Below are positions 446 through 29,106 of a stretch of DNA of 64,000 nucleotides, piece after piece. How positions within the stretch are numbered: the stretch's first letter is position 1; the number at the start of each line of letters is the position of its first letter. Location: assembly GCA_008690995.1 (NCBI GenBank), contig VRMN01000010.1:1-64000 (forward strand), in the 5' to 3' direction. Made by a program: the position numbers and the translations under genes. The notes beneath the pieces are model-generated. The model searched no databases. It was not told the origin of the DNA and saw nothing but the letters and a program-made list of their open reading frames with translations. The DNA comes from Porphyridium purpureum (Eukaryota).

Positions 446-471
446 AGAGTAACCCTAGAGTAACCCTAGAG
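446..471 (+). repeat. 2.4 copies of AGAGTAACCCT (reverse strand TTACTCTAGGG), candidate telomeric repeat
   Basis: agagtaaccct agagtaaccct agag read directly; the same motif recurs at 1044, 8442 and 43446. Confidence 0.7.
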
Positions 472-1043: not shown

Positions 1044-1056
1044 AGAGTAACCCTAG
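1044..1056 (+). repeat. Single telomere-like unit AGAGTAACCCTAG
   Basis: Exact match to the 446-471 motif, at the junction between element and satellite. Confidence 0.65.
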
Positions 1057-1472
1057 TGTTCAGTGCACTTGCGTAGTGTCCAGTGCGCGTTCGTAGTGTT
1101 CAGTCGTCCTCAGTAATGTTCAGTCGTCTTCAGTAGTGTTCAGTTCGATTCAGTAGTGTTCAGTGCACTTGCGTAGTGTCCGGTGCGCGTGCGTAGTGTT
1201 CAGTCGTCTTCAGCAGTGTTCAGCTCGTTTCAGTAGTGTTCAGTCGTTTTTAGTAGTGTTCAGCTCGATTCAGTAGGGTCCAGTGTGCTTCAGTAGTGTT
1301 CAGCTCGATTCAGTAGGGTCCAGTGTGCTTGCGTAGTGTTCAGTTCGATTCAGTAGTGTCCAGTGCGCTTGCGTAGTGTTCAGTGCACTTCATGAGTGTT
1401 CAGTGCGATTCAGTAGTGGTCAGTGTGATTCAATAGTGTTCAGTTCACTTCAGTAGTGTTCAGCGCGCTTCA
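1057..1472. repeat. Subtelomeric 20-bp minisatellite (CAGTAGTGTTCAGTNNNNTT-like, ~20 copies, 10-bp sub-period)
   Basis: Repeating cagtagtgtt/cagt.. units are visible throughout. Confidence 0.9.
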
Positions 1473-1519
1473 GCGTGATCATCCGCGCTCAGTCTCACTC
1501 GCGCGTATGCACACCCGCG

Positions 1520-2010
1520 CTAACCCGCTGCGCAGCTGGTTGTGCAGACTGCGTTTACCAACACGGTATGATGAGCGTGCAAAGCGTACAGCTCCCCTAC
1601 GCATCCCTGCTCCGCGGCCTTGCGCCACCACTCAATTGTCGCGATCTTGTCGGTACGCAGTCTGCGTAACCCGTTAAAAAGGGAAGCGAGCAACTGCACT
1701 GTGACCACGCGCCTCACTATTCTGCGGCCTTGTAGAACCACTTGATCACCGTGTTCTTGTCTTCAGGCAGACCGCCTAACCCATGAGAATAAGAAGTGCC
1801 CAGTTGCACGGCGCCTGTGCGTCTCCGGATTCCGTGGCTAGAGTAGCAGTAGCGTGTCTCTGAACCATGGATCAGCGGCACCACTTGACCGCTGTGCAAT
1901 GACCTGTGCCTAGATCGCTCCACTTATTCTCGCATCAGCGGGCCAAGTTGTTCTGGCTGCCTGCGTCTCCCTGTTCCGCCGCATTGCACCACCACTTGAT
2001 CGCCGCGCGA
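1520..2010 (-). pseudogene. Degenerate Sel1-repeat gene relic
   Basis: Fragments LGTSYSHGLGGLPEDKNTVIKWFYKAAE and IEWWRKAAEQG match the Sel1 units at 12.8-14 kb; broken by stops and frameshifts. Confidence 0.75.
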
Positions 2011-2500
2011 TGGTCACTTGTCAGATCGCGTTCGCCGTTGTCTTACAACAGGGCCACAGTTTTGCACGCGACCGCGAGTACCTCTTCCGTGGCCTTGCGG
2101 TATCACCACCCTGTCATGCGCTTGTTTTGCGCCGACCACTCCACGCGTGCGTACCATTCTCACCTGGCCTCCACTGCAAGCCCGCATCTCCCGCCTGTGC
2201 CGCGTTCTGCACAGATCTCAAGCTTATGCACGGCATGCGCGCTGTGCTGATCGCCGCGCGAGTGTCACTTGTCAGATCGCGTTCGCCGTTGTCTTACAAC
2301 AGGGCCACAGTTTTGCACGCGACCGCGAGTACCTCTTCCGTGGTCTTGCGGTATCACCACCCTGTCATGCGCTTGTTTTTGCGCCGACCACTCCATGCGT
2401 GCGTACCATTCTCACCTGGCCTCCACTGCAAGCCCACATCTCCCGCTTGTGCCGCGTTCTGCACAGATCACGAGCTTACGCGCGACCTACGCGCTGTGCT
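1997..2500. repeat. Tandem duplication, 251-bp unit
   Basis: tgatcgccgcgcga..gtcacttgtcagatc starts at both 1997 and 2248; the two copies are near identical. Confidence 0.9.
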
Positions 2501-2701: not shown

Positions 2702-3169
2702 CTCGGACGAATAATCGGCGCGACAAAACTTCTCGAGCGACCGCTGTGGAGTGCACGAGCCCGTATACACCATACGCAGGCCGTTACCTCTTTGACGCCG
2801 CCCACCCAAAACCAGATTTGTATTTTGTACGGCCACAGCTGCGCATACGGTAAAGAAGATCTGCCGGCACGTTGTCCGACACCAATCGACGCTTGCGCAA
2901 TGTCCGCGCGCTAGATGTCTCACTCGATAGGCACCGAGCGATGCCAGTTTGTATTGAACGCGTCGTGGTGCTGACTTCAACACCTTTTCTCTGCGAGTCT
3001 TCGAATAGTACCTAAAATGCGACTGAAGCGCTGAACATCTGTAACCCCTGCTCTTTCATCCTATCCGGCTTTGAACTTGCCTACAGCGTGATCGCGCGTA
3101 AAGTGAAGGTCGGCAAGCTTTTCGTTCCAAGTTGGTTGAGCTCAAGTTGTGCGGAAGTGGCTGGAAAGG

Positions 3170-6100
3170 ATGCCGCACTTTTTGTGCAGAAAGGGCTGCG
3201 GCTCAGTCTTGACCAGTCAGAGCGCGCGCGACGTGCATGAGCGCTACTGTTTCTTACAGAGCGAGGACATCGATGGAATGTGCTGTCCAGAATGCATATT
3301 TGCTGTGAAGGTCACACCAGGAGAAGAAAAGAAAGCGCGGGCATACATTCGCAGGCATATGACTCGTATGCACCCCAGGCATTTGTCACGCTCCCCTTTC
3401 ATTGCTCCTTGCGCATCATTCGCGACGGCCAAAGGGAACACACTTCGACAAAACATCTGTAGCTCGGTCCGCTCCGCTCGCGCGATTGTCATTGGAACTA
3501 ACGCTGTGGCATCATCTTCCGCTGTCCGTGCAATCATGGACACGCCGTTGCAGCCGTACAATCCGGCGCGTACGCTGACTGGATCAGCATTGACGACGTT
3601 GGGATTTTACGACACATATGAAGACATGCTTGAAGCGTACTCACATGCCATTCGAGAACCAGCAGAGGAGAGTGTCATCTATGCGCGAGAGTGGTGTGAA
3701 TTTGCGAGGCGGGCAATCAGGCTTGCTCTCAAGACCACGCCACATCTGCTGAGAATTCCCGTGCCTGGCAAGCAGGGCAACCCATCGGAGCTTGACATGC
3801 ATGACCCAGAGGTATGGAGCGATGGATCAAAGTATAGAACTTTGGCGACCCTCAAAGACGAGACTTTGGAAAAGCGCATCCCGAACATCGCACGACTGTT
3901 TTCCTTTTACGCTTACTGGCTTTTGCAAATGAATCTCGAGGACGTCGTTGTGAAATACGAGCAGACCCACGTGCCAAGCAATACTCGTCCTGTGGTTGGC
4001 GCCCTTCAAAGCATTTTGAACTATGCACTTGAGCAACCTACAACATCCACCGGAAACACACGGCCAGCTGCACGCGAATTTTTGCGCTCGCACGCGCTCC
4101 AGCAAGTGAGTGACCGAAACGGAGAGCCATCAAGTATCCACGACGAAATGTCTGGATCGCAGTCCGGCACGTGTTTGACCAGTCGCAGTGCCTTAACGAT
4201 AAGTGAGTTGTCAGCCACGCAGCTCTGGGTTTTGAGAGCTGCGTGGGTTGTGAGGCTAATTGTGAAAGAGAAAGACCGGGAAATACAAACCTCAAACGAC
4301 ACGATTCTTTCCGACGTTCCCTGTGCGCAAGTACTGTACATGATGCACTCCGTCTTCAGAAGCGCGCAAGAGCCATCCACGTACGTGGCATGGAAAGCTA
4401 TGGGCAATGGTTCCTGGATGCACTTAAAGACGGAAGTGCTGGTGCAAGCAAAGGTCTTTGGTAATTTGTACAATGGCTCCAGAGCGGCCGCTCGAGCTTT
4501 GGTTGCCCGAGTTCTTGGAGCGCGCGATAACTTTTCGGTCCGGGTGTTGTCGCAGCATAATACAACGGCGCCAATGCTCGGTGAAATTATACTCGATGGC
4601 AGTGAACGACATGCAGCTCAGCCTGCGGAACTGCTCGCGAGCGCCAGACGCCAGAACATCGATTTCAACGCACTGAGCAATTTTGCATTACTTGCGTTCT
4701 CTGCCGCGTGTGCCCCGCCGCGAAAGTCAAGTATGGAAACTTTTGTTCTCGCTAGCCGAAGTGTTGGAAATTCACTTAGACCTGTTTTAAATACTCGTGT
4801 AGTGAGAGTTGTCGAGGTTGTTGAGAAGAAATTGGGTCGCGCGCTTGCAACTGAAACTGTTGAGCATCTTCCAACTGAGGAAGTCGCAGAAGTGCTGCTT
4901 ATCATGCATTGGATTGCGAGTGCATATATTGACGAGATACTTGGCCAGCAAAATCAGGGGCAAAATGTACCTGAGAGCATTGACTTTCGAAACTTTGGGG
5001 CCTGCGCCAGCAGAACGACTTGTGCAGCACTTAATCCGGAGGAGTGGATTGCACAAGTAGAATGTGCTGTTGGGCAGTTCTGCGCCGTGCCCATGACCTT
5101 ACGGGACTTGCGCAATCTTTACTTGCATTGCGTACGAGACAACGCTGACGCTTTCCGAGGAATTGCCGCCCCGCAAGGGATACAGCCCGTAGACACACCT
5201 GCGCAAAAGTACAAGATCCGCGGCGCAGGTCACTCGCTTGCGACAGACGCCGCATTCTACCTGGCTTCAGTAAAAGACGAAGACTGGTTTGCATTCACAG
5301 TGGAATGTCGCGACGCATGGCTTGCACTGATTGGCGCGGAAACTCACGCTTCGTCACGGATGGGCTCCGTGCATCCGAGAGAGCTTTCGCTCGGAGAATG
5401 GGCCTCACTGGCGGGTTTGACGCCAGACACATTGCTCCGTGATGTATATGGTAGCGCTTCCGTCGCCAGCCCGCAAGCAAGGAAGCAGCTTGAAATGCTG
5501 AACGAAATTCTGATGGACAAGAACGTTTGCGTACAATATCCTTGCGGAAGTGGTAAGTCAGCATCATACTTGTGCATGGAGAAAGTCGTTCGCTTGCAAG
5601 GTGCCTTTGTTCTGCTTTTGGTACCGCTTCGCGTTTCCATGTTTGCTGCATTGCAGGAGGCAAGAAGTAGAAGGATTGAAGCCGTTGACTTGTACTCATG
5701 TACCGAGCGTTCGCATGGCGGCCTCGTCGTCACCAGCATGGATGCACTTGCATCACAACGTGCAGCTCTTAGACGCATTGCAGAACGCATCGCACTCGTT
5801 GTCGTGGACGAGAGTCACGTCGTACTAGAACATAGCTCGTTCCGCGAGTCAATGTCCGTCAAGCTGAGCGCGTCGCTTTTGACGAAATCCTGCTTTGTAT
5901 TTCTCAGTGCGACGATAAGTGAAGATGCTGCTGCGTTCGTTGCCAAAGAGTTTGGTGTGACCATCGACTCCTTTTTGCGTGCACGACCACTTCGAGAATC
6001 ATTGAACATCAGCGTGACAGAGTTTGGCACGAGCGCAATCTGCACTCAACAGATTACGGCCGCCATCCAGGAAAATGCGCTTGCTCGTCGTGGGCGTGCA

Positions 6101-7444
6101 CTGATAATGTGTGCTACTCATGCAGAAGCCGACACATGGTTTGACGAAATGAGAAAGTCTTACTCGGATGCATGTTACAAACTGACAGCACGTGAAGCTC
6201 TCGACGCTGAGGCATTGCAGCAAGCGCGGGTAATCGTTGGCACATCCGCTGTGAGCTCATCTCTGAATTGCAAATCTGTTTTGTACTGCGCCGTGATGCG
6301 CGGAGCACATTCGCTCAGCCAAGTGGTCCAAGCATGGGGCAGAGTTGGTCGCGACGGTGAGCACGCCCGCTGCGAATTTTTCTTCGACAGAAATTTCCAG
6401 AACGCATTGGACCAGCGTGACAGCCCGAGCATTCGCCAGGTTCCAGGTTTTGAGCGCGACCCTTGGCATAGTAAAGCCGGTCTACGGCGCTTCGTTGAGA
6501 GTGCACTTGACTTATCCTCTCACGAAGTTCACAGCGTGCTCAACCTTTTAACCACTCGCTCCATGGTGACTCAGACAGCCAACCCAGTGACGGTGCCGCA
6601 GCCAAGCTTGCACGAGATGGTGCGGCCAAGTACGCACGTGGTTGCAGAACCAAGTTCGGGCATGATAGCGCAACCGACGTCGTACATGCTGGCACAGCCA
6701 AGCTCGCACACGGTCGCAGCGCCAAGCTCGCACACGGTCGCAGCGCCAAGCTCGCACACGGTCGCAGCGCCAAGCTCGCACACGGTTGCAGCGCCAAGCT
6801 CGCACACGGTTGCAGCGCCAAGCTCGCACGTAATGGCGCAGCCCACTTCGCACGTGCCGGAGCAACCAACTTTGCACTTGCTCGCGCAGGCCAGCTCGCA
6901 GCAGCACGAGGCGACGCCACTGGCTAGCTCTGCACCAGCGCGCGCGCTGGGCGAGCAATTACAGACGATCAGACAAGCAAGAGCGACATGGAATACTGCA
7001 ATGTACAAATGCATCTGGTGCAGTGGTGTCACATGTCTTGGCACATGCCAGAATCCGAACAGGTTTCCCAACACCTGCCCATACTGTGGGTTTCGATACT
7101 CACGGTCATCTGCAGCGGCCCACGTCTCCTGCAGCAAACGGTCGGCCGGAAATATCATCAGACCAAGACTCGCGCCAAACTTGGGCATGTGTTTCCGTTG
7201 TCTGGCCCCCACCGAAGTGTGCGAAAAGAAATGCGAAAAGGCTCCGAGCGCCTTAAAGCACAGAATGGAAGCCGTGTATCGGAAAGCTTTCTCCTTGATG
7301 GGCACTCCCGGATCTGGTGGAGCAGAAGAGTTGACCATCTTCTACACACACAAGCTGTGCGAACTCGTGAGCTGGGAAGGCTTCGAGTTGTACAAGCGAG
7401 CGACAAAGCTCATGGCGAATGAATGGAGCCTTCAGAAAGTATAA
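3170..7444 (+). CDS. Telomere-linked-helicase-like protein: N-terminal zinc fingers, tyrosine-recombinase-like region, RecQ-like SF2 helicase, Cys-rich C-terminus
   Basis: CxxxC..HxxxC and CPEC..HxxxxH fingers; helicase motifs PCGSGKS, LLVPL, VVDESH, LSAT, QAWGRVGRDG; YR-like PPR(4721)...LRDLR(5111)...AGH(5231)x8Y(5258); C-terminal CxxC pairs. First ATG at 3170. Confidence 0.85.
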   Translation: MPHFLCRKGCGSVLTSQSARDVHERYCFLQSEDIDGMCCPECIFAVKVTPGEEKKARAYIRRHMTRMHPRHLSRSPFIAPCASFATAKGNTLRQNICSSVRSARAIVIGTNAVASSSAVRAIMDTPLQPYNPARTLTGSALTTLGFYDTYEDMLEAYSHAIREPAEESVIYAREWCEFARRAIRLALKTTPHLLRIPVPGKQGNPSELDMHDPEVWSDGSKYRTLATLKDETLEKRIPNIARLFSFYAYWLLQMNLEDVVVKYEQTHVPSNTRPVVGALQSILNYALEQPTTSTGNTRPAAREFLRSHALQQVSDRNGEPSSIHDEMSGSQSGTCLTSRSALTISELSATQLWVLRAAWVVRLIVKEKDREIQTSNDTILSDVPCAQVLYMMHSVFRSAQEPSTYVAWKAMGNGSWMHLKTEVLVQAKVFGNLYNGSRAAARALVARVLGARDNFSVRVLSQHNTTAPMLGEIILDGSERHAAQPAELLASARRQNIDFNALSNFALLAFSAACAPPRKSSMETFVLASRSVGNSLRPVLNTRVVRVVEVVEKKLGRALATETVEHLPTEEVAEVLLIMHWIASAYIDEILGQQNQGQNVPESIDFRNFGACASRTTCAALNPEEWIAQVECAVGQFCAVPMTLRDLRNLYLHCVRDNADAFRGIAAPQGIQPVDTPAQKYKIRGAGHSLATDAAFYLASVKDEDWFAFTVECRDAWLALIGAETHASSRMGSVHPRELSLGEWASLAGLTPDTLLRDVYGSASVASPQARKQLEMLNEILMDKNVCVQYPCGSGKSASYLCMEKVVRLQGAFVLLLVPLRVSMFAALQEARSRRIEAVDLYSCTERSHGGLVVTSMDALASQRAALRRIAERIALVVVDESHVVLEHSSFRESMSVKLSASLLTKSCFVFLSATISEDAAAFVAKEFGVTIDSFLRARPLRESLNISVTEFGTSAICTQQITAAIQENALARRGRALIMCATHAEADTWFDEMRKSYSDACYKLTAREALDAEALQQARVIVGTSAVSSSLNCKSVLYCAVMRGAHSLSQVVQAWGRVGRDGEHARCEFFFDRNFQNALDQRDSPSIRQVPGFERDPWHSKAGLRRFVESALDLSSHEVHSVLNLLTTRSMVTQTANPVTVPQPSLHEMVRPSTHVVAEPSSGMIAQPTSYMLAQPSSHTVAAPSSHTVAAPSSHTVAAPSSHTVAAPSSHTVAAPSSHVMAQPTSHVPEQPTLHLLAQASSQQHEATPLASSAPARALGEQLQTIRQARATWNTAMYKCIWCSGVTCLGTCQNPNRFPNTCPYCGFRYSRSSAAAHVSCSKRSAGNIIRPRLAPNLGMCFRCLAPTEVCEKKCEKAPSALKHRMEAVYRKAFSLMGTPGSGGAEELTIFYTHKLCELVSWEGFELYKRATKLMANEWSLQKV
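6697..6829 (+). repeat. 24-bp coding minisatellite encoding (PSSHTVAA)n
   Basis: gccaagctcgcacacggt(c/t)gcagc x5.5, with degenerate units on either side. Confidence 0.95.
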
Positions 7445-8520: not shown

Positions 8521-9781
8521 TCAAACCGATTTGAATTGGCGGTTTTCAGTGCGCCACCACTTAAGCACATGCATGAATGCTTCCCAAACGCGTCCGTGGT
8601 TGATACGCCGCCATATGAACTCCTCCAAATAAAGGTTCACACGATTTCCATCATAAGCAGAATCAGGCATGGTTGCTTTCACGGCCCGCCAAGTTCCTTC
8701 CACTGTATTCGTGTGCACTCCCGTAACCGGATCCTTGAAGTGCATTTCATGGTTTACGGTATAGTGTCTGAGTGTTATCCGTTCGACCCCAGTCACCTAG
8801 AACGGTTCAGTTAATCCGAAACCGGTAAGCCGTTAAACCGGTAGGCCGTTTAACCGTTTCTAGAAGCTTCTAGAGGTTCCAGAACCTTCTAGACGCGCGC
8901 AGAAATGCCAATGGTTTGCATTGTCATTTCTCTTGGCGCCTTGCTGTCCCTGACGGAAGTAAGGGTATAAAAAGGCGACGCGCCTGCCCGGACTAGCCGG
9001 TCAGGTCTTGCTCGGAGAGAGAAGCAGGCAAAGACGCAGAGAGTAATAAAGGCACAGCATTGGTAACACTGAGTGTCGGATGGTACTTCAAAATGAAGTA
9101 CGACTTCCAGCAATCCGTATGTATAATGGAGCCCGGGTGCACACGCTGCTGTATGATGGGAATTAAAGTGCGCGTTGTCCGGTTGGGCACCACTGTCATG
9201 AAGAGACGGCGTTCTTCAGTTCGTTCCACTCCGGCAAGCACCCATACCCCATCAACGCGATGTCCTCGATGGTACTTGCGCTTCCGAAACTTGCTTTCGT
9301 CGATTTCGACTGTAACATCCTGGCCACAAGTGGGAGCCTCATGCATAGCATCGTACTCGACATTGCACTGGCGTACATGCATGAGAATGCTGCGCACTGA
9401 GCTCCTCGCGAGTCTAGTCAACTCTGAAATCTGCGTGGCACAAAGACAGTGGAGCCAAAGAAAAACACAAAACAAGACATCGTGAAAAGCAAGATTTTTA
9501 TGGGCAGAGAAGAACGAATTTGTAGATCGAAGTGATACAAACTGCTGGCAAGCCTTTCTCTTGCACCTGAATGCACACTTTACCTGAATCTCGCGCATCT
9601 CCGCCGAGCAACCCACCGCAGGACAACGCATTTTTGCCGCAAGCACACCGATACTCATAAGGAACTGTATGCATGCATGCTCATCGGAGAGCAGTGCATA
9701 GACTTCCTTGAGCGTAGGAATACCGGCGTCCTCCATGCTCCTCCTCCCTTGCCCCTTCGTCAGCATGCATTCATGCTCCAT
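8521..9781 (-). mobile_element. Merlin (IS1595/ISXO2-like) DDE transposase interrupted by a solo LTR
   Basis: Zinc ribbon CPAVGC...CKRKAC; VEIDESKF.KRKYHRG, WVLAGVER, PGSIIHTDCWKSY, H.TVNH...F.DP.TGVHTNTVEGTW, YLEEFIWR. Removing the LTR and one TSD copy restores ...YHPTLRHYTVNH in frame. Confidence 0.92.
8773..9068 (+). mobile_element. Solo LTR (296 bp) with 5-bp TSD CTGAG
   Basis: TGTTATCC...GGTAACA termini; CTGAG at 8768-8772 and 9069-9073; internal TATAAAA (~8967) and AATAAA (~9045); homologous copy at 42855. Confidence 0.9.
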
Positions 9782-9845
9782 AACGTCAGGTTCGGTTTAT
9801 CGGTTTATTATTTCACTCTACCTCCTTGAGTACAGTTCATGGAGA

Positions 9846-11228
9846 ATGTACAGGTCGCACCCTCGCGCTCCGTCAGCCGCTGCACAGAATAAGCTAGACG
9901 CAGAGTTTCACGGGCGTTGGAAGTTTGTTATGGACTGTATCGGGTTCAAGGCTTTAGTCAGTGAGCCTCTGGGAAGCATGACAATGATGGATCTACGCAG
10001 AAAGGTTCGGGAGAACGAGCTGGAGCCCGTGACCAGGTCATTGATGGTCAAATTTCGGCAGCTGACGGGTTTAACGACGAGATGGTGCATAGATTTTGAC
10101 GCGAGCCAGCCAGGAAATCTGGTGTTTGCCGACTTTGCAATCACGGCTTTGCCGTGCAAACGGTTGAGCGCTGGTAAAACAGTGCTTTGGGCGAGGTCAA
10201 TAATGGACAGCCGCTTTCTACGATGGATTAGGGATACGCCAAGAGGTTACGCTAATCGCCTTGTCACGGAGGATCGGTTTGCGAATATGCCCAATGTCAC
10301 GGGTTTTCGCGTTCGGTGCGACGGTGATGTATGCAGTATGGTTCACTCGACGTCGGCGGGAGGAGCTGAAGACCTTGTTGCTCCTCATTCACCACGCGAG
10401 CTCATGTATGTTCAAGCTTATCATACGAGTCGTCACCGTGCTTCTACCAACGCGTTAAAGCCGCTAAAGTGGCCTGGTGAACAGCGCACAGTTACGTGGC
10501 CGACTGCCGTCCAACTGTGTAAGGCAGCCGATTGGCTGGCAGATGCAATTCGTGAGGAGACCAAGAATGACCGTGCCGGACAAGGTGTTCGAATTGAATT
10601 TAGGGTGAGCCTGAGACAGCACAGCTTTGCGGGTGTAGACGGTGAGTCCCTGTGGTTTGAACATGACACGGTCGAGCGCGTTGAGGAAAATGTCTGGGCC
10701 ATCGTTCTCCGATGGATGACGTCAGTGCTCTGCGGACAATATCTTCTGTGCTATCAGACGGACGAGCTCAACGATTATTTGCGAATCACGGCGGAGTGCT
10801 TGAGACTGACGGGTAGACGCGCGCTTGGACAGCTGGCCCGTATGAGTGACTTTGATGCAGATGGTCACTATTGCGAATCCGTCAGTTTTGCACGTCGTCC
10901 TCTGCATGCGTTGCTGATCTCGACATATATTTTGCAGACGGGACTTTTGCGCCGCTTGCCAACCGACAAGACGTGGTTTCGTCAGATTGTCATAGACATC
11001 TGTGGTTTTGACACATTCGTGGGGCAGCGTAAGGCAGGTAAAGTTGTATGGCTGAGGGTTACTGTAGGGTTTAGGGTTGGTGGTGGATGTACACTCCTGG
11101 CCAAGATGGTTGTCCCAGGTGCAATTTCAAGGTCTGAACTCCAGTTTTATAGTAAAAACGAGCGTTTTCATATAAAATCAACTAGAATACCTTTTTTAAC
11201 ATATTTTTGTTCCTCAGCTCAGAGGTAA
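9846..11228 (+). CDS. Uncharacterised ~400-aa ORF divergent from the Merlin transposase; 3' end runs into a telomere-like tract and the Tc1
   Basis: Long ORF with motifs WCIDFD, YVQAYH and GVRIEFRV; the last ~60 codons come from inserted sequence. Confidence 0.55.
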   Translation: MYRSHPRAPSAAAQNKLDAEFHGRWKFVMDCIGFKALVSEPLGSMTMMDLRRKVRENELEPVTRSLMVKFRQLTGLTTRWCIDFDASQPGNLVFADFAITALPCKRLSAGKTVLWARSIMDSRFLRWIRDTPRGYANRLVTEDRFANMPNVTGFRVRCDGDVCSMVHSTSAGGAEDLVAPHSPRELMYVQAYHTSRHRASTNALKPLKWPGEQRTVTWPTAVQLCKAADWLADAIREETKNDRAGQGVRIEFRVSLRQHSFAGVDGESLWFEHDTVERVEENVWAIVLRWMTSVLCGQYLLCYQTDELNDYLRITAECLRLTGRRALGQLARMSDFDADGHYCESVSFARRPLHALLISTYILQTGLLRRLPTDKTWFRQIVIDICGFDTFVGQRKAGKVVWLRVTVGFRVGGGCTLLAKMVVPGAISRSELQFYSKNERFHIKSTRIPFLTYFCSSAQR

Positions 11229-12640
11229 GCGCGCGCTTTTGCGGGACCCCATGAGGCCATGAAGGGGTTCAAGACATGTGAAAGAAGACTAACGCATCTA
11301 CTGCACTCGGGCATACGATCGCGACCAAGTCCAGCAACCGCAAGCATCGGAAACATGGCACCACGGCTCTCCGACTTCGAGAAAGGGCAGATTGACGCTC
11401 TGCACCGGCTCTGTCTGACGCCGCGGGCCATTGTAGCACGTCTTCATCCGCGACCAGACAAGACCCGACCATCGTACAAGACTGTGGAGCGATTTCTGAA
11501 GAATCGAGGCAAGAAAAGGGTTTTCAAGAAACCCGGACCGGCGCGGACAATATCGCCGAAATTGGAGCGTCGCCTGATTCGGCACGTCATTACGGATAGG
11601 TTGACGTCTGCACAGGCAGTGACGGAGCTGCAGCTTGCGTGCAGTGCGAGAACTGTTCGTCGTATCCTGCAGAGATCACCAGAGGTTCGTATTATCGCAC
11701 AGAGGCGAAAGTTCTTCATTTCGGAGAAGAACCGAGTCAAGCGGCTTGCATTTGCTCGAGAATACGTTCACAAGCCGCTATCGTTTTGGAAGAATGTCAT
11801 CTTCTCGGATGAAAAGATCTTTCGGCTGGACGGGCCACACGGGTACAACAAGACTTATCAGCGAACGCGAGGCCCTGAGCCCGCGCCAACTATGCGTCGC
11901 CATAGTGGCGGAGGATCCGCAATGTTTTGGGGTGCCATGTCGTGGCACGGACTGAGTACGTTGCATCGTGTTCAAGGCTCGCTGAATGCCGAGCGATATC
12001 GGCAGGTTATGCTGAACGTCATGATGCCCTGGGCACTGGAACTGCCTTGGCGCCTTGATCAGCCGGATTGTCCATTCATATTTCAGCAAGATAATGCGCC
12101 CGGACATGCAGCGCTGAGCACGCGCGAGCTGTTTGACACGGTCGGAATCGCACTACTTGATTGGCCAGCGCGGTCGCCGGACTTGAATCCAGTTGAGAAT
12201 CTGTGGGCGATCGTTTCTCGCCGTGTGCATTGGCAGGGACGCCAGTTTATGCGCCTCGATGACATGCTTCCAGTTATCTATGACTGCTGGCGAACGGAAG
12301 CGCCAGAGTATGTTGAGGCACTTTTCGAGAGCATGCCCCGTCGTCTGCAAGCTTGCATCGACGCCGGTGGCCGTCAAACCAAGTACTAGTTTCGTTAAGA
12401 CAGTTAAATCTCTTCTCATAAGCGTGTTTGTCCTCATCAACCTGTTTCATTGTATTTCTTTTCTGCGGCCCTTCTCACAGGTGTCTCACTGTTCTACGAT
12501 GCCTTTCTAAGCCCTTACCGCTTTCCCGTGCCGCGGATTCGTTTCGTGCCATCAAAACAGACGACAACCTAGTCGAAAAGCTGAGTTATTCACAAAAAAC
12601 TTCATTTAATCCTGTGGGACAACTAACTTGGCCAGGACTG
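11092..12640 (+). mobile_element. Complete Tc1-like DNA transposon
   Basis: 26-bp TIRs CACTCCTGGCCAAGATGGTTGTCCCA / reverse-complemented CAGTCCTGGCCAAGTTAGTTGTCCCA (23/26); TA on both flanks. Confidence 0.93.
11355..12389 (+). CDS. Tc1 DD34E transposase
   Basis: HTH N-terminus, VIFSDEK, FQQDNAPGH, WPARSPDLNPVENLW with 34 residues between D and E; no stops. Confidence 0.95.
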   Translation: MAPRLSDFEKGQIDALHRLCLTPRAIVARLHPRPDKTRPSYKTVERFLKNRGKKRVFKKPGPARTISPKLERRLIRHVITDRLTSAQAVTELQLACSARTVRRILQRSPEVRIIAQRRKFFISEKNRVKRLAFAREYVHKPLSFWKNVIFSDEKIFRLDGPHGYNKTYQRTRGPEPAPTMRRHSGGGSAMFWGAMSWHGLSTLHRVQGSLNAERYRQVMLNVMMPWALELPWRLDQPDCPFIFQQDNAPGHAALSTRELFDTVGIALLDWPARSPDLNPVENLWAIVSRRVHWQGRQFMRLDDMLPVIYDCWRTEAPEYVEALFESMPRRLQACIDAGGRQTKY

Positions 12641-12717: not shown

Positions 12718-15700
12718 CTATAAACCTGGTCTTATCCAATCATCCAGCCCATTTACGTTTGCCTGTTCCGCGGCCTTGCGGTACCACTCGGCCGCGGCGC
12801 GCTTGTCCTGCCGCAGCCCGCCCATCCCTTTCGCGTAACAAATGCCCAATTTTAACTGCGCCGCTGCGTCTCCCTGTTCCGCGGCCTTGCGGTACCACTC
12901 GACCGCGGCGCGATCGTCCTGCGGCAGCCCGCCCTCCCCGTTCTCGTAACAAGTGCCCAAATTATTCTGCGCCGCTGCTTCTCCCTGCTCCGCGGCCTTG
13001 CGGTACCACTCGACGGCCGCGCGCTTGTCCTGCGGCAGCCCGCCCTCCCCGTTCTTGTAACAAGTGCCCAAATTAAACTGCGCCGCTGCTTCTCCCTGTT
13101 CCGCGGCCTTGCGGTACCACTCGACGGCCGCGCGCTTGTCCTGCTGCAGCCCGCCCTCCCCGTTCTTGTAACAAGTGCCCAAATTATTCTGCGCCGCTGC
13201 GTCTCCCTGCTCCGCGGCCTTGCGGTACCACTCGACGGCCGCGCGCTTGTCCTGCGGCAGCCCGCCCTCCCCATTCTTGTAACAAGTGCCCAAATTTTTC
13301 TGCGCGCGTGCGTCTCCATGCTCCGCGGCCTTGCGCCACCACTCGACCGCGGCGCGCTTGTCCTGCGGCAGCCCGCCCAATCCGAACTCGTAACAACAGC
13401 CCAAATTAAACTGCGCCGTTGCGTCTCCCTGCTCCGCGGCCTTGCGCCACCAATTGACCGCGGCGCGGTCGTCCTGCGGCAGCCCGCACTCCCCTTTCGC
13501 GTAACAACGGCCCAAATTAAACTGCGCGTCTGCAAATCCCTGATCCGCAGCCTTGCGGTACCACTCGACCGCGGCGCGCCTGTCCTGCGGCAGCCCGCCC
13601 TCCCCGATTTCGTAATGAACGCCCAAACCAAACTGCGCGCCTGCAAATCCCTGATCCGCAGCCTTGCGCCACCACTCGACCGCGGCGCGCTTGTCCTGCG
13701 GCAGCCCGCCCTCCCCGTCGTGGTAACAACGGCCCAAATTATACTGCCCCTTTGCGAGTCCCTGTTCCGCGGCCTTGCGGTACCACTCGACCGCGATGCG
13801 CTTCTCCTGCGGCAGCCCGCCCAAATCGTACTCGTAACAATAACCCAAACTGTTCTGCGCCGCTGCGTCTCCCTGCTCCGCCGCCTTAAGCAACCACTCG
13901 ACCGCCGTGCGCGTGTCCTGCGGCAGCCCGCCCAAACCCTCGTGATAAAAATAGCCCAGCCGGCCCTGCGAGTGAGCGTCGCCCAATTGCGCCGCCTTGC
14001 GGTACCACTCCAGCGCTTCCGCAAAGTCCTTGTTGTCCTCAGCAGTCCGACCACGTCGCTGCCAGTCCGCCGTGTCGCGCCGCGCCTGCTCCGCGGCGGC
14101 GGCGGCGCGATGCGCAGCTCTCGCGCCTCCTTCTCGCGCCGCGCTTGCTCCACCGCAGCAGCGCGTTGCGCGGCTAGCTCTCGCGCCTCCTTCTCACGCC
14201 GCGCTTGCTCTGCCGCGGCAGCGGCGGCCTCTTCTTCACGCTTCCGCGCAGCAGCAGCTTCCGCTTCGCGCCGCGCGGCAAGGTCGCGCGCTTCCTTCTC
14301 GAGGCGCTCGTGTTCCTCTGCGGCTGCCCGACGAACGGCGGCTGCGTGCTCTAGAGCCTGACGATCGCGCTCCGCTTTCTTCTTGTCCTCTTCAAGCCGC
14401 CTCTTCTCAGCCTCATTCTGTTGCCGTCTTAGCGCTGCCTGCTCTTCGGTCTCCACCGCCTTGAACCATTCAGACCCCGCCGGGCTGCCGAGCTTTGCGG
14501 CCTTGGCATACCACTCCTTCGCCAGGCTCCAGTTCTGCGGCACGCCCCGCCCAGAGTGGTGGCAGCGGCCATACTCAATCATGGCGTCCGTGCGTCCTTT
14601 CTCAGCGGCTGCGCGCACCCAACCGGCGCCATGTTCCAAGTGCTGGCTCCTGCCGTGCGAGCCGTCGAGCAAAATCTTGCCCAGCCGGAATTGGCCTTCC
14701 GCGGCACCTGATTCCGCTGCTAGCTTAAAATACTCATACGCGTGCGTCATGTTCCCCGCTTTCTCCCATTCCTCTGCGTAGCGGAGCTTGTCATCGGCAC
14801 TCAGCGTTTGCGCTTGTGCGGGCTGGGATACACTTGGCCCCGCCGAACTGCCTCCCGTGCTCGACACTGCGGCTCCTGACCGACCAGATGCCACCGTAAC
14901 GTGCGAAACGCGTGCACCCAACGCACCAACCTCTACCGTGCTCGCGTCAGAAGAGGACGCAATGGCAGAGACACAGGCCTGCTCCTTGCAAAATGCCACC
15001 GAAATTTTCGCCATGCTCGGGCGCTCTCGAGCATTCATTCTCAAGCATGCTTTAGCCGTGTCTACTAACCACGTCGGCCAGGCGTTTGCGTATGTACTTT
15101 TCTTCAGCCTGTGCCACGGCACGCCCTTCGTCGGATCCCTGAGTGCCATATCGATTTCCACCTGCGTCGCTCTGCCAAACATGGGCTCGCCCAATACCAT
15201 CTCATACAACATGACTCCAAACGACCACACGTCACAAGTCCGGTCATACTTGTCACCACGCATGACCTCTGGCGCCATGTACGCATCTGTGCCAGCCTTT
15301 GATTTTGCATATGACCCGGTGTTCTTCACGGTTGCCAACCCAAAGTCGCTGATCTTGGCCGTGTATTCCTCCGTGAGCAGAATATTCTGAGGCTTGATGT
15401 CTCTGTGGATCAGTTTCGCAGAATGCAGGTACTTGAGACCATTCACGATGCCAACAAAAATGTCCAACAGCTGCGCGCGGGGCAGCACACCCTGCATACT
15501 ACTTCGAAACATGTGTTTGTCCAGCGAGCCGTTCGCTGCGTATTCTAAAAGAATGAATGGCTTCCTGTGACGCTGCGTACCGCTCTCGAGCGGATAGAAC
15601 CCACCACGCGTCTGGATGATGTTCGTATGAGAGAGCCGCCACATCGCCCCGAGCTCGTTCTTCAACTGAATCAGCGCATCCATTGTTTCCGTCGGTACTT

Positions 15701-16541
15701 CCTTGATGGCCACCGTTGACCCAAAGCATGTGCCTTTGTAAACAATTCCAAAACCTCCAGAGCCCAGCATAACGTACTCGTCCAATTCGTCACGCTCTTT
15801 TCGGACGTGCGCGACGTCGACATACCATGGCTCCGTTTTCGTGGGTCCGGTCGACAAGCCGCTGGAATTAGAAGCGTCTGTGTACGGCTTGTGGATATCC
15901 ACGCGGAGACTGTGCATCTGAAGAACAGCGCTCTTTTCTGATCCGGAACCAAGTTGCTCTTCGAGCTTGGGTCGATCCTTGACCTTATCCTTCTCCAGAG
16001 CCAAAAGTATTTGCTGGTGCCTATGTTCTTGCACATGCGTGCCTCGTTTGTGAGAGTCCGCAAGCTTGAACAAAACGATGCGCGATAACTGAGCTTCGAG
16101 CTTGTCCAGCGTATCGCTGCAGGTCTGAAATTCGGCCTGGTAGTTCTTTGCCCTCATCACGCGACGAAACTTCTCATTCCAGCGTTCTGCGGACGAGAAC
16201 TTTTCCACAAGCGAGCAGGTGGACTCGAGCGCGGACGTCAGATCCGCCAGGCACTCGAGCAGGCGACCGTGCTGCGCCTGGTCTGTGCCCGACCTCATCT
16301 TTTCGCCTTGGCCACCAAAATAATCAAGCAGCACGCTCTCAATGCCGGCGGCCTGCTTTGCCAGCTGCTTACATGTGTCGTGCATGGCTCGCGCGGCCTG
16401 CGCCAGCTCCACGATGACCTTGATGACCGCGTACGCCGCCGCAACGTACGGCAAAACCTCGCCGACATCGTTGGCGATCGTGCCTCCGACTTTGAGGGCT
16501 TCCTCAAACGCCGCGCGCTCCGCTGCGCGACCTGCCGCCAT
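12718..16541 (-). CDS. MLKL-like helical N-terminus + TKL-type protein kinase + Sel1 repeats; one frameshift near 14116
   Basis: Kinase motifs GSGGFG, VAIK, HRDIKPQN, DFG, APE; Sel1 units and an E/A/R coiled coil follow. At gagctgcgcatcgc (minus strand) the natural sequence continues in the frame of ORF 12718..13986 (..AAEQARRDTADW...EWYRKAAQLGDA..). Confidence 0.85.
12763..13983 (-). repeat. Eleven tandem 111-bp Sel1 repeat units
   Basis: 37-aa unit GDAAAQxNLGxCYxxGEGGLPQDKRAAVEWYRKAAEQ. Confidence 0.95.
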
Positions 16542-21304: not shown

Positions 21305-22213
21305 CTAGTCAGCTGGGTATTTCAAAGAAAACTGCGCAGCTGTATGTCCCTGTTCCGCGGCCTTTCGGTACCAGTCGACCGCCGCACGCTTATCCTGCGG
21401 CAGACCACCCTCACCGTTGCAGTAATAATAGCCCAAATGATACTGCGCCATTGCTTCTCCCTGTTCTGCGGCCTTGCGGAACCAGTGAACCGCCACGCAC
21501 TTGTCCTGCGGCAGACCGCCCCACCCGTTTTCGTAATGAACTCCCAATTTACACTGCGCCGCTGCGCAACCCTGTTCCGCGGCCTTGCGGTACCAGTCGA
21601 CTGCCGCATCCCTATCCTGTGGCAGCCCGCCCTCACCGTTGCTGTAATGAGCGCCTAAATTATGCTGCGCGCTTGCGTCTCCCTGTTTCGCGGCCTTGTG
21701 ATACCACTCGACCGCCGCGTGCATGTCCTGCGGCAGCCCACCATCCCCGTTGTCGTAATAAACGCCCAAATTACTCTGCGCCCTTTCGTTTCCGTTTTCC
21801 GCGCCCTTGCGGTACCACTCGGCCGCCGCGCGCTTGTCCTGCGGCAGCCCGCCCTCCCCGTTACTATAAAAGACGCCCAAGTTAAACTGCGCTCCTGCGT
21901 CTCCCTGTTCCGCGGCCTTACGGTACCACTCGGCTGCCACGCGCTTGTCCTGCGGCAGCCCGCCTTCCCCGATGCAGTAACAATAGCCCAAATTGCATTG
22001 CGCCGCTGCTTCTCCTTGTTCCGCGGCCATACGGTACCACTCGACCGCCGCGCGCTTGTCCTGCGGCAGCCCGCCCCACCCATTCTGGTACCAAACGCCC
22101 AAATTATACTGCGCCTGTGCGTTTCCCCGTTCTGCGGCCATGCACCACCACTCGACCGACGCGCGCTTTTTCTTGGCCGAACCGCCCTCCGCGTGGCTGT
22201 AACTAACGCCCAT
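21305..22213 (-). pseudogene. Sel1-repeat array (~8 units), 5'-truncated paralog
   Basis: Same 37-aa unit; upstream reads DAAA-stop where Q is expected, and no kinase lies upstream. Confidence 0.75.
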
Positions 22214-27068: not shown

Positions 27069-29041
27069 ATGAGTTCGCCGACGCTGTGCGCCAGAGACGT
27101 TGCACTGTATCGGCGCCTTGCGCGCGTCGTTCTCCGCCGATCGCTCTGCGAGCGCTGGACGGTCGCACTTTATGACACTGGCTTTGACATGGAGAGCCAC
27201 CCGTTCCCGCACGCTGGCAGAGCGGTGGCAAGCGCCGCGCACCAGAAGGGTACGAGGAAGGCGATCTGCACTGGTACAAGCACGCCACCACAAGCCGGCA
27301 ACGCTGACCTCAAGTCAGCAGATGTGAACGAGTGCGGTCGACGCGGCGGCATTGGACAAAGTCCAAAAGTACAAACCCAGGAGCTCAACCGGAAGCTACA
27401 AACCGCGCTCCAAGGAGACGCTCAGATGGCTGGACTTGATCGCATGCCTGAGCGTATGTTCTATCAGGTGGAACAACTACTACTTACAACAACCGCTCCA
27501 TTTGATGGAGTCACGGTGAGTCTTGGGCTACGACTGCTCCGGCTTCTCTCAGTCGCGCTTCCGCGTGCTAGTCTGGTGTGCGGGGTCCGCGTGCTAGTCT
27601 GGTGTGCGGGGTCCGCGTGCTCCAGCGTGCACGTGCGCAAAGCGTCCTGCTGGACTCGCATGTCATCATGCATATCTTGGAGCTGGCCAGGCCGTGCGGA
27701 AAGATCAATGTTGTATTCGCGGTCGTTCGGTTAGTGTGTATGCAGCAGCACAAGAACGCCTTCGATCTCAAGGGATCGGCCCGCTCAGGGGCCAGAATAC
27801 AGGTCAGAGCAGCGCGCGAACGTTTCAGTGTGATCGATGCCATCGCGATGGACACTCTGCTCCGCTTTTTCACTCTCAATAAGCAAAATCGACTCGCAGC
27901 TGAAGTATGGAAGATGATGAAGGCACGGGCATTTGCAGCAATTCCGTCGCGCCACATAAGTGCCAGCATTCTCTCGCAAGGTGCATGGATTTCTATGGTT
28001 ACTGAGAATGCCACCGAGGCGGGCTGGATTTTTCGCAAACTCATGGAGCTTGGCGTCAGGCCGCATGCGCGCACGCTGGACCTACTGACGCTGACTTGTG
28101 CTCGTGCAGGAGCTTGTGAGGATGCGTGCACACTGATTCGTTGGACGTGTCGACTAGGCTACTCACTGAATGAGAAAACACTGTTTGCTTTTATACGGGC
28201 TGCTCAAACGACCGCGTCGGGGCAAGCTTTGGGGGAGCTGCTCATACCCTTTGGTTATGTTCTACTGGAAGCTGAACGCTTGTGCACAACCAAGCGCCAA
28301 CGGACATTGCTCATGCGGGCATACTTTGAAGCCTTGTATTATGCTGCATCGGGCGAGCAGCTGGCCGATGAGCATGTGCACGACGCAGCTGATTTCGCAG
28401 AGCGAGTGGAAAGCTGGACAACAAAAGATAGCGAATTATCTAGCTACTGTGTCTATCTCTTTTGCCAGGCAGACCGTCTTGACGATGCCCTTCGCGTGGC
28501 ACGGGACAATCATAGACGAGCAAATGGTGCGGGCGTGCGGACAGATGGAAAAGTGCCGGGACAGATGCATGCGTTCGCATACGACGCCGTGATCTTGCTG
28601 AGCATCCAGCAGAACCGGTTACCGGAGGCAATGACACTTGTCATTGGTAGATCGGTCGATAGCATAATGGACGCACGCCTTGCTGTGTTCGCGTCAAAGT
28701 GCTACATCGACCGACTCAGCCGCCTTGAGCAACTTGATCTATGTGCCGAGGTACTTGATGCCTTTGTGCAAAAGTTTGCCGCTTACTTGGGCGAAGCAGG
28801 TCGCTCTGTAGAAGCTATCCTAATGTTTCAAAAGCTACAGCCTCCGCACGATGAATCGACTTCTAGCGATAGCAAGGAAGGACAGTGCACTACCCGCGTG
28901 TCGTTCACAGAATTGGTCGACTTTATGGAAGCATACTTGGCGACATCAGACGATGGTGTGCGTTCGAAAATCGAGGAGGATGTGGCTACCGTTCTCGCTG
29001 AATTGCAAGGCTCGTCCCTTCTAAATCGCACGAATGATTAA
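27069..29041 (+). pseudogene. Helical-repeat (PPR-like) protein paralog 1, frameshifted by a 26-bp tandem duplication
   Basis: ORFs 27069..27734 and 27578..29041 fuse when one copy of the 27561-27612 duplication is removed; the fused sequence aligns with the 32676 paralog. Confidence 0.75.
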
Positions 29042-29106
29042 AGCGCCCTCCACTTCGCCTTTGTCTTCTGGTTCCGGACACGCAGACCTTCTCCGGTCGG
29101 GGCGGA

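What the first reader, a model, noticed from the sequence alone, without database searches (positions are those of the whole stretch)
12718..16541. MLKL-like kinase with a hypervariable Sel1 array: candidate NLR-analogous immune receptor
Seen: a helical N-terminus (…VAAAYAVIKVIVELAQAARAMHDTCKQLA…), an intact kinase and eleven 111-bp Sel1 units. The unit scaffold (GGLPQDKRAAVEW.RKAAEQ) is nearly invariant, while positions 2, 4, 7, 8, 11, 12, 14 and 15 vary widely (e.g. position 11 Y/R/V/C/T/I; 14-15 HE/EY/HD/EI/AK/EF/KN). Known: fungal NLR WD40/TPR arrays show this concerted-yet-hypervariable pattern, and MLKL four-helix bundles execute cell death. Inference: a sensor-kinase-executioner receptor diversified by repeat shuffling at the subtelomere.
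Basis: partly seen in the sequence, partly recalled or inferred. Interest (0 to 1): 0.75.

Follow-up and report, generated by a model that had tools for sequence, protein, structure and literature searches.

The report
Red algal MLKL-kinase-Sel1 receptor family
A single-celled red alga carries a family of genes that join a domain related to the cell-death domain of MLKL, a kinase with all its catalytic residues and a fast-diversifying repeat array, likely forming a one-piece sensor of foreign molecules.

Summary
In the window the kinase and the Sel1 array lie in different frames (break at 14115). Four of 8 sequencing runs laid, from four studies, carry four more bases there; the other four do not cover the site. 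So the break is an assembly error and the gene encodes 1275 aa: N-terminal helical bundle, kinase with all catalytic motifs, conserved middle Sel1 module, coiled coil and eleven 37-aa Sel1 units. The bundle is MLKL_N-related: a family profile finds a fish MLKL (E 2e-4 among 1.8 billion proteins). Fold matches agree but are not decisive alone. Six of the seven most variable unit positions correspond to TPR ligand contacts. They show omega 3.5-7, robust to recombination and double hits but not if these codons get their own silent rate. Position 12 is not hypervariable. The positional pattern is generic for Sel1 arrays. The gene belongs to Porphyridium purpureum, which has at least 16 family records; terminal arrays hold 1-11 units where present. 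Glomeromycotina have the same domain order. It is not an NLR (no NOD) and not MLKL proper (not a pseudokinase). Immune role, cell death and the subtelomere are inferred, untested.

The parts
12718..16541 (-). Whole gene, predicted 1275 aa once the four bases missing from the assembly at 14115 are counted
   Evidence: the public model P0002 (KAA8492029.1) starts at residue 129 and skips across the break
16455..16541 (-). N-terminal extension, residues 1-29, in front of the bundle; low-confidence helix
   Evidence: MLKL residue 1 aligns with model residue 30; pLDDT under 50 for residues 1-25
16047..16454 (-). MLKL_N-like four-helix bundle, residues 30-165; helix 1 (29-47) is the most hydrophobic stretch of the protein
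   Evidence: Kyte-Doolittle 1.84 over 19 residues
15792..16046 (-). Linker between bundle and kinase, residues 166-250 (brace-like position, inferred)
   Evidence: position in the ORF; 26-42 of 82-85 residues shared with the distant relatives
15000..15770 (-). Ser/Thr-type protein kinase domain with all catalytic motifs, residues 258-514
   Evidence: Pfam PF00069 1.2e-53; motifs
14451..14798 (-). Middle Sel1/TPR module, residues 582-697, more conserved among paralogues than the kinase
   Evidence: Pfam Sel1 652-686; 81-113 of 116 residues identical in six P. purpureum paralogues, largely missing in P0005 and P0123, 43 of 116 in Erythrolobus
14074..14450 (-). A/E/R-rich predicted coiled-coil spacer of variable length among paralogues
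   Evidence: 79 of 109 residues are A, E or R; coiled coil inferred from composition only
14115..14116 (.). Assembly error: four bases missing, apparent frameshift
   Evidence: 4 of 8 runs laid carry the bases, 0 of 8 show the window's form, 4 of 8 do not cover the site
13984..14073 (-). TPR-like cap unit in front of the array
   Evidence: weak Pfam TPR_2/TPR_1 match without gaps, profile positions 4-30
12763..13983 (-). Terminal array of eleven 37-aa Sel1 units; variable at 2, 4, 7, 8, 11, 14, 15 (less at 17, 24, 31)
12718..12762 (-). 14-residue C-terminal cap and stop; same length as the cap of P0001 but diverged
21305..22213 (-). Second, solo Sel1 ORF (302 aa, seven full units of the same 37-aa type), no kinase or bundle upstream
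   Evidence: its 3' flank matches the tail of paralogue model P0005
1562..2461 (-). Degenerate Sel1 relic of the same type, with stops and frameshifts
   Evidence: tblastn and translation

Best explanation
This is one gene of an expanded Porphyridium family that joins an MLKL-related four-helix bundle, a kinase with all catalytic motifs and a terminal Sel1 array with variable contact positions, and it likely works as a one-piece cytoplasmic sensor of non-self that ends in membrane damage. Shown: the domain order, the relation of the bundle to MLKL_N, the family expansion, unit gain and loss between paralogues, and an excess of amino-acid change at six positions per unit. Inferred: the units stack into a superhelix whose inner groove is lined by those positions; a foreign protein bound there brings molecules together through the coiled coil; the kinases phosphorylate each other and release the bundle; its hydrophobic first helix enters a membrane and opens a channel or kills the infected cell. 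The kinase would take the switch role that the NOD has in NLRs, and the combined roles of RIPK3 and the pseudokinase in necroptosis. New specificities would come from unit duplication, loss and exchange plus selection on the contact codons.
For: Bundle: Pfam MLKL_N in 7 of 7 family members, best E 1.9e-5. A profile of them finds 15 proteins among 1.84 billion; 7 are red algal family members, and 7 of the other 8 pass the MLKL_N cut-off, among them conger MLKL at E 2.4e-4. ESM Atlas first hit is an MLKL_N cluster, score 0.94, 36% of members annotated. Models match MLKL N-terminal domains with the best TM-scores in the list (0.50-0.58 by query, probability 1.0) and Z 11.8 at rmsd 2.3 over 118 residues; AtMLKL3 Z 10.9 at rmsd 3.2 over 132. 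Helix 1 hydrophobicity is 1.5-2.0 in 8 of 10 family members; an N-terminal membrane helix is the working part of HeLo/MLKL domains (PMC10197012, passages). No other segment reaches a hydrophobicity of 1.3. Array: 6 of the 7 most variable positions correspond to TPR positions 2, 5, 6, 9, 12, 13, which contact ligands (PMC1261162, passages; p 3e-6). M2a against M1a 2dL 35, omega 5.8; 0 of 77 null simulations with or without recombination reach 31, maximum 13. With sites fixed beforehand omega is 7.1, or 3.5 with double hits allowed (p 5e-4); diversity is 0.53-0.59 at first and second positions of contact codons against 0.16 at fourfold scaffold sites. Units 7-10 meet the fungal HiC rule (93 of 100). 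31 of 31 units examined have different 8-site signatures. Closest paralogue P0001 has 4 units against 11; P0121 and P0256 differ by 74 residues, two units.
Against: No Pfam score of the family reaches the MLKL_N cut-off (24.7 against 27 bits). No Foldseek match has E under 0.001, IncA ranks first in all four fold searches, and Z under about 13 is common for helical bundles. A 29-residue extension precedes helix 1, whereas the MLKL bundle starts at residue 1; helix 1 is not hydrophobic in P0005 and P0123. The positional pattern is generic: 42 control arrays give rho 0.75 and 18 of 42 have units as alike as these. With their own silent rate the contact codons give omega 2.8-3.2 at p 0.05-0.28; a codon hot-spot model is not rejected for this array alone (p 0.11; both arrays p 0.004). 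The solo array shows weak or no signal (p 0.019, 0.24). PHI is not significant at 20-30 nt. No strain difference was seen in units 1-2 in X6 and X10. RNA reads of X22 and X23 have zero depth at the junction and many come from other alleles or paralogues. Plant MLKL immunity can be separated from cell death (10.1101/681015, passages).
Confidence: 0.5

Rival explanations
1. A diversifying sensor kinase whose bundle is a non-lytic oligomerisation or membrane-docking module; the output is phosphorylation of host targets, not death.
For: Catalytic motifs are kept in all full-length members except P0123, which lacks DFG, and P0009, whose model lacks the C-lobe motifs. A 29-residue extension precedes helix 1. 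Related bundles (DUF7792, PUB10_N, MCAfunc clusters) also score. AtMLKL immunity can be separated from death.
Against: Helix 1 is the most hydrophobic stretch in 8 of 10 members, as expected for a membrane-entering helix. The nearest outside relatives by profile include MLKL itself.
Confidence: 0.27
2. Repeat-rich gene litter: units multiply by unequal crossing-over in a transposon-rich compartment and vary at the positions that any Sel1 fold leaves free; no recognition is selected.
For: Same variable positions in 42 control arrays; neighbours are transposases, a RecQ-like helicase and Sel1 relics; 5 of the 16 P. purpureum records (P0006, P0008, P0124-P0126) stop before or within the kinase; the hot-spot model is not rejected for this array alone.
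Against: Contact codons are over three times as diverse as fourfold sites interleaved with them in the same units; the gene is intact in four studies; the same architecture is kept in Erythrolobus (P0007); the rest of the unit is under purifying selection (omega 0.27-0.43).
Confidence: 0.12
3. A self/non-self system between cells of the alga itself (mate or kin incompatibility, or a selfish killer-antidote pair), as with fungal het genes, not defence against microbes.
For: Fungal HiC repeat receptors include incompatibility genes (PMC4986451, passages); solo arrays such as 21305-22213 could be partners or decoys.
Against: No allelic difference was seen in the little that could be compared (units 1-2); no partner gene lies next to it in the window.
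Confidence: 0.11

Closest known systems
Glomeromycotina MLKL-like kinase-Sel1 proteins (PMC8778642; example Acaulospora morrowiae P0134)
   Same: Same order MLKL_N, kinase, Sel1; family expansions; function stated as unclear.
   Different: P0134 lacks the glycine loop, HRD and DFG motifs and has two Pfam Sel1 matches; its kinase scores 30 bits against 280-511 within the red algal clade and falls elsewhere in a thinly sampled tree, so independent assembly is likely. I saw no report of selection on their repeats.
Vertebrate MLKL and plant MLKLs (AtMLKL1-3)
   Same: Four-helix bundle, linker, kinase fold in that order; profile and fold matches.
   Different: They are pseudokinases and carry no sensor repeats. 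Here the catalytic motifs are complete, the bundle has a 29-residue extension, and two Sel1 modules follow.
Fungal NLRs with high internal conservation (NWD; HeLo-like/NACHT or NB-ARC/TPR, ANK, WD; PMC4986451)
   Same: N-terminal bundle plus C-terminal repeats with a fixed scaffold, selected contact positions and variable repeat number.
   Different: No NACHT or NB-ARC domain; a kinase sits in its place; repeats are 37-aa Sel1; the host is a unicellular alga.
Ectocarpus ROCO-LRR and NB-ARC-TPR candidate receptors (PMC3341825, abstract)
   Same: Algal gene families with birth and death and diversifying selection on repeats.
   Different: There each repeat is an exon; here the array is one unbroken reading frame and the switch is a kinase.
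Metagenomic effector-plus-Sel1 proteins (P0135-P0254)
   Same: Long Sel1 arrays behind kinase, caspase-like, trypsin-like or TIR domains with the same variable positions.
   Different: 36-aa units in those counted; no MLKL_N in their listed Pfam domains; their kinases group apart from the red algal ones.

Membership tests
MLKL_N / HeLo-like four-helix-bundle superfamily | Sequence-profile relation to MLKL_N | tested here: met
   7 of 7 members match PF22215 below its cut-off; the family profile finds MLKL and six other MLKL_N proteins at E under 1e-3
MLKL_N / HeLo-like four-helix-bundle superfamily | Four-helix-bundle fold superposing on MLKL | tested here: inconclusive
   Four helices, pLDDT 70; TM 0.50-0.58, Z 10.7-11.8, but IncA ranks first and E about 0.1
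MLKL_N / HeLo-like four-helix-bundle superfamily | Oligomerises and damages membranes | not testable with these tools
   Only helix-1 hydrophobicity was measured
MLKL proper (vertebrate or plant) | Catalytically dead pseudokinase | tested here: not met
   All catalytic motifs present; definition
MLKL proper (vertebrate or plant) | Bundle, brace, kinase fold in this order | tested here: met
NLR (STAND receptors) | Central NACHT or NB-ARC domain | tested here: not met
   No such Pfam match at E 0.1 in either half of the protein; the sequence is accounted for by other domains
NLR (STAND receptors) | N-terminal effector and C-terminal superstructure-forming repeats | tested here: met
Fungal-type HiC repeat receptors | At least 85% internal identity over 100 residues | tested here: met
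   93 of 100 over units 7-10; whole-array mean 0.72; rule
Fungal-type HiC repeat receptors | Positive selection at a few positions per unit | tested here: inconclusive
   Significant in M2a, double-hit and fixed-site models and against recombination nulls; not significant with a separate silent rate
Fungal-type HiC repeat receptors | Selected positions on the concave face | tested here: inconclusive
   By register with TPR contact positions (the TPR consensus L7-G8-Y11 is recalled); no surface mapping on a model of the array was done
Fungal-type HiC repeat receptors | Repeat-number polymorphism between strains | not testable with these tools
Number varies between paralogues
Fungal-type HiC repeat receptors | Shuffling or conversion between units | tested here: inconclusive
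   Units 5 and 11 alone share codons 14-15, and units 3 and 5 codon 11; PHI not significant at 20-30 nt
Diversity-generating retroelement target | Variation confined to adenines, template and reverse transcriptase nearby | tested here: not met
   Silent A in codons 1 and 3 is kept in 16 of 18 units; diversity by majority base 0.20-0.24 for all four; no reverse transcriptase among the 19 proteins scanned
Subtelomeric gene family | Close to a telomere | tested here: inconclusive
   No telomere array in the window; the passages read give no telomere repeat for this alga (PMC3622300); the first 27 kb hold transposases and a RecQ-like helicase, core genes follow

The most novel reading that the evidence does not exclude
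A unicellular red alga has built a necroptosis-like immune receptor in one chain, independently of fungi, plants and animals: a repertoire of shuffled Sel1 arrays reads foreign proteins, an active kinase replaces the NOD switch, and an MLKL-type bundle kills the infected cell; solo arrays nearby serve as a store of units.
Probability: 0.35. Interest if true: 0.85.

Novelty: new variant of a known kind. Interest (0 to 1): 0.62.

Why it matters
Red algae have no characterised immune receptor or death executioner in the papers I saw; Sel1 proteins appear only in a list of possible pathogen receptors (PMC12115072), and a survey of 67 protists found no necroptosis regulators (PMC7539657). This family names a testable candidate for both in one gene. 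It would show that the effector-switch-repeat design of NLRs can run on a kinase, and that single cells keep such death domains. It also gives a lead for the unexplained kinase-Sel1 expansions of mycorrhizal fungi. The public protein model lacks the first 128 residues and bridges an assembly error, which hides the bundle from domain surveys.

Tried and rejected
Pseudogene or programmed frameshift at 14115: rejected, since the four runs that cover the site carry the missing bases. An intron there, as in model P0002: not needed. DGR-like adenine mutagenesis: rejected. Recombination as the cause of omega above 1: not supported by 77 simulations. Profile search of PDB sequences found nothing under E 0.3. 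The word-based search with the bundle profile found only red algal members. No whole genome was held, so genome-wide unit statistics and the contig end could not be examined. The Chondrus and Porphyridium genome papers were not held; they or their supplements may already mention this family. No supplements were read. Earlier scan notes: nothing. No complex prediction was obtained, so oligomerisation is untested. The array was not folded; both fold jobs went to the bundle. X11 (RNA) holds no piece of this gene's junction, only related units; X6's contig ends at 14114; neither is evidence of absence. Summed contig depths over the scaffold were not used as copy numbers. The kinase tree failed at display and was redone more simply without P0130.
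Full report
What is in the sequence. The finding lies on the minus strand, from an ATG at 16541 to a stop at 12718. As the window stands, these are not one frame: an ORF of 1229 codons (16541-12852) holds the N-terminus and kinase and then runs into nonsense, while the Sel1 array lies in another frame. The switch is near 14115, inside an imperfect duplication in an A/E/R-rich stretch. Tandem Repeats Finder gives a 111-base period at 12762-13933; translation gives eleven units at exactly 37-residue spacing.

The frameshift is an assembly error. Eight of the 24 public runs listed were laid on this place. Contigs of X1, X4, X10 and X13, from four studies, carry four more bases behind 14115 at their full depth and have no other differing letter over 168-390 bases. 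X22, X23, X11 and X6 do not cover the site. None shows the window's form. One holder may be the source of the assembly, which would not weaken the point. Four bases put the start and unit 1 in frame, with no stop on either side, giving 1275 residues. The public model P0002 is 100% identical, is named Porphyridium purpureum, starts at residue 129 and jumps across the break. Raw RNA reads of X22 and X23 (794 and 526 laid) have their first mate almost wholly on the plus strand, which in most stranded libraries means sense transcripts. Only 230 and 111 are 99% alike, many places carry other letters, and depth at the junction is zero. So the family is expressed; a transcript of this copy across the junction is not shown.

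Anatomy. Residues 30-165 form a helical bundle; 258-514 a kinase (Pfam 1e-53) with glycine loop, AIK, HRDIKPQN, DFG and APE; 582-697 a middle Sel1 module that is better conserved among six paralogues (81-113 of 116) than the kinase (about 55% outside P0001). Then come an A/E/R-rich spacer, a TPR-like cap unit, the eleven units and a 14-residue cap. Only residues 29-47 are markedly hydrophobic, so the protein is likely cytoplasmic.

The bundle. Seven of 7 family N-termini match Pfam MLKL_N, best E 1.9e-5, under the curated cut-off. Their profile, run on 1.84 billion proteins, gives 15 hits: 7 red algal family members and 8 others. Seven of the 8 pass the MLKL_N cut-off; they include conger MLKL, a Cymbomonas kinase and two Acaulospora proteins, one with kinase and Sel1. 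One cysteine is invariant in all 22 aligned sequences. The ESM Atlas first hit is an MLKL_N cluster at 0.94. Two models (pLDDT 60 and 70) match MLKL N-terminal domains with the highest TM-scores listed, but at E about 0.1 and behind IncA. VIA-align gives Z 11.8 (rmsd 2.3, 118 residues) for MLKL, 10.9 (3.2, 132) for AtMLKL3 and 12.1 (3.6, 142) for IncA (similar), in a range the tool calls common for bundles. Homology rests on the profiles; the folds agree. MLKL residue 1 aligns with residue 30, so there is a 29-residue extension.

The array. Fifteen of 37 positions are invariant. The most variable are 15, 4, 11, 7, 14, 2 and 8; position 12 is Cys in 9 of 11. TPR positions 2, 5, 6, 9, 12 and 13 contact ligands (PMC1261162, passages). 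In register (cap-unit match; the L7-G8-Y11 consensus is recalled) these are unit positions 4, 7, 8, 11, 14, 15, six of the top seven (p 3e-6). This alone is not special. Of 120 Sel1 proteins returned by the array search, 42 had five or more units fitting a strict pattern and were used; they show the same profile (rho 0.75) and a median unit identity of 0.71 against 0.72 here. They were found by likeness to this array, so they are a biased control.

Selection. My own codon models, on a tree of the units: M2a against M1a 2dL 35, omega 5.8 at sites 2, 4, 7, 8, 11, 14, 15, 31; the solo array 2dL 11.5. Null simulations with 1 to 37 independently shuffled segments reach at most 13 against 31 observed, 0 of 77. 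Allowing double and triple hits leaves p 0.023 for this array and 2e-4 for both. With the six sites fixed beforehand, omega is 7.1, or 3.5 with double hits (p 5e-4); the rest has 0.27-0.43. Against this: if the six codons get their own silent rate, omega is 2.8-3.2 at p 0.05-0.28, and a hot-spot class with omega 1 fits this array as well (p 0.11), though not both arrays (p 0.004). Six codons cannot fix a silent rate. My inference is that conversion tracts cannot spare codons that alternate with invariant ones, so selection is the simpler reading. PHI is significant only at 10 nt, where neighbouring bases of one codon confound it. Units 7-10 meet the fungal HiC rule.

The family. At least 16 P. 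purpureum protein records and one Erythrolobus australicus protein belong to it. Terminal units number 11 here, 4 in P0001, 3 in P0003, 6 in P0004 and P0255, 5 in P0005, 1 in P0009, 3 in P0122 and 6 in Erythrolobus. P0121 and P0256 are nearly identical but differ by 74 residues, two units. All 31 units compared have different contact signatures. P0001 differs from this gene at 4 of 136 bundle residues but 33 of 262 kinase residues, bunched in the N-lobe, a mosaic. Five records end early; some may be assembly errors like this one. The kinases form their own clade (support 0.997), apart from the Acaulospora kinase, in a tree of 42 sequences that leaves out P0130.

Surroundings. The first 27 kb hold a RecQ-like helicase, an ISXO2-like and a Tc1-like transposase, a solo seven-unit Sel1 ORF and a decayed Sel1 relic; core genes follow. 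That fits a chromosome end but no telomere array is present, and the passages read give no telomere repeat for this alga.

Mechanism. Shown: architecture, homology, expansion, unit gain and loss, excess replacement at six positions. Inferred: the array binds a foreign protein, the coil brings partners together, the kinases phosphorylate each other and free the bundle, whose first helix enters a membrane (by analogy with HeLo and MLKL; PMC10197012 and PMC12881547, passages). I put this at 0.5, a non-lytic sensor kinase at 0.27, unselected repeat turnover at 0.12 and self-incompatibility at 0.11.

What is known. It works like an all-in-one HeLo-type NLR but is not one (no NOD), and it is not MLKL (not a pseudokinase). 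MLKL homologues with Sel1 repeats are mentioned for Glomeromycotina, function unclear (PMC8778642, passages); kinase and Sel1 families are expanded in Rhizophagus (PMC6123716, passages). Diversifying repeat receptors are described in fungi (PMC4986451, passages) and brown algae (PMC3341825, abstract). Nine paper searches showed no listing that describes this family in red algae; the two red algal genome papers I asked for were not held and no supplements were read. Verdict: real, a new variant of a known kind, interest 0.62.

Noticed in passing
window 21305-22213, minus: Solo ORF of seven Sel1 units of the same type with no kinase upstream; here position 12 is variable and 15 is not. Possible unit reservoir, decoy or truncated paralogue.
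   Followed up: partly
window 1562-2461, minus: Decayed Sel1 array with stops and frameshifts, overlapping a 251-base duplication (1997-2502).
   Followed up: partly
window 3149-7444, plus: 1431-aa ORF with a RecQ-like helicase domain (TIGR00614 3e-9) and an 8-residue repeat; recalls telomere-linked helicases of fungi (from memory).
   Followed up: partly
window 446-471 and 43446: 2.4 copies of an 11-base unit ending in ACCCT, C-rich on the plus strand near the window start; could be a telomere-like motif, unverified.
   Followed up: partly
window 1054-1473: Satellite of 21 copies of a 20-base unit.
   Followed up: no
window 11259-12389 plus; 46249-47187 minus; 8993-9781 minus: Tc1/mariner-like transposase ORF 330 bases from the gene's stop, a second decayed copy, and an ISXO2-like transposase.
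   Followed up: no
window 9708-11228, plus: 506-aa ORF with no Pfam or NCBIfam match.
   Followed up: no
window 27578-34874, plus: Three neighbouring ORFs of 487, 592 and 732 aa with no Pfam match at 1e-4; they look alike and helical by eye.
   Followed up: no
proteins P0135-P0254: Mostly metagenomic proteins with long Sel1 arrays behind interchangeable caspase-like, trypsin-like, kinase, TIR, rhomboid, Hsp70 or phosphatase domains, varying at the same positions: possibly a parallel receptor repertoire.
   Followed up: partly
proteins P0129, P0131, P0132: MLKL_N also occurs with Sel1 in an MMETSP transcript and with kinases in Cymbomonas and an unnamed ENA contig, so the domain is more widespread in microbial eukaryotes than the survey in PMC7539657 found.
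   Followed up: partly
P0002 and P0124: Two family members lie on a contig of the same length, 768,875 bases, with accession numbers 273 apart; they may sit at opposite ends, not checked.
   Followed up: no
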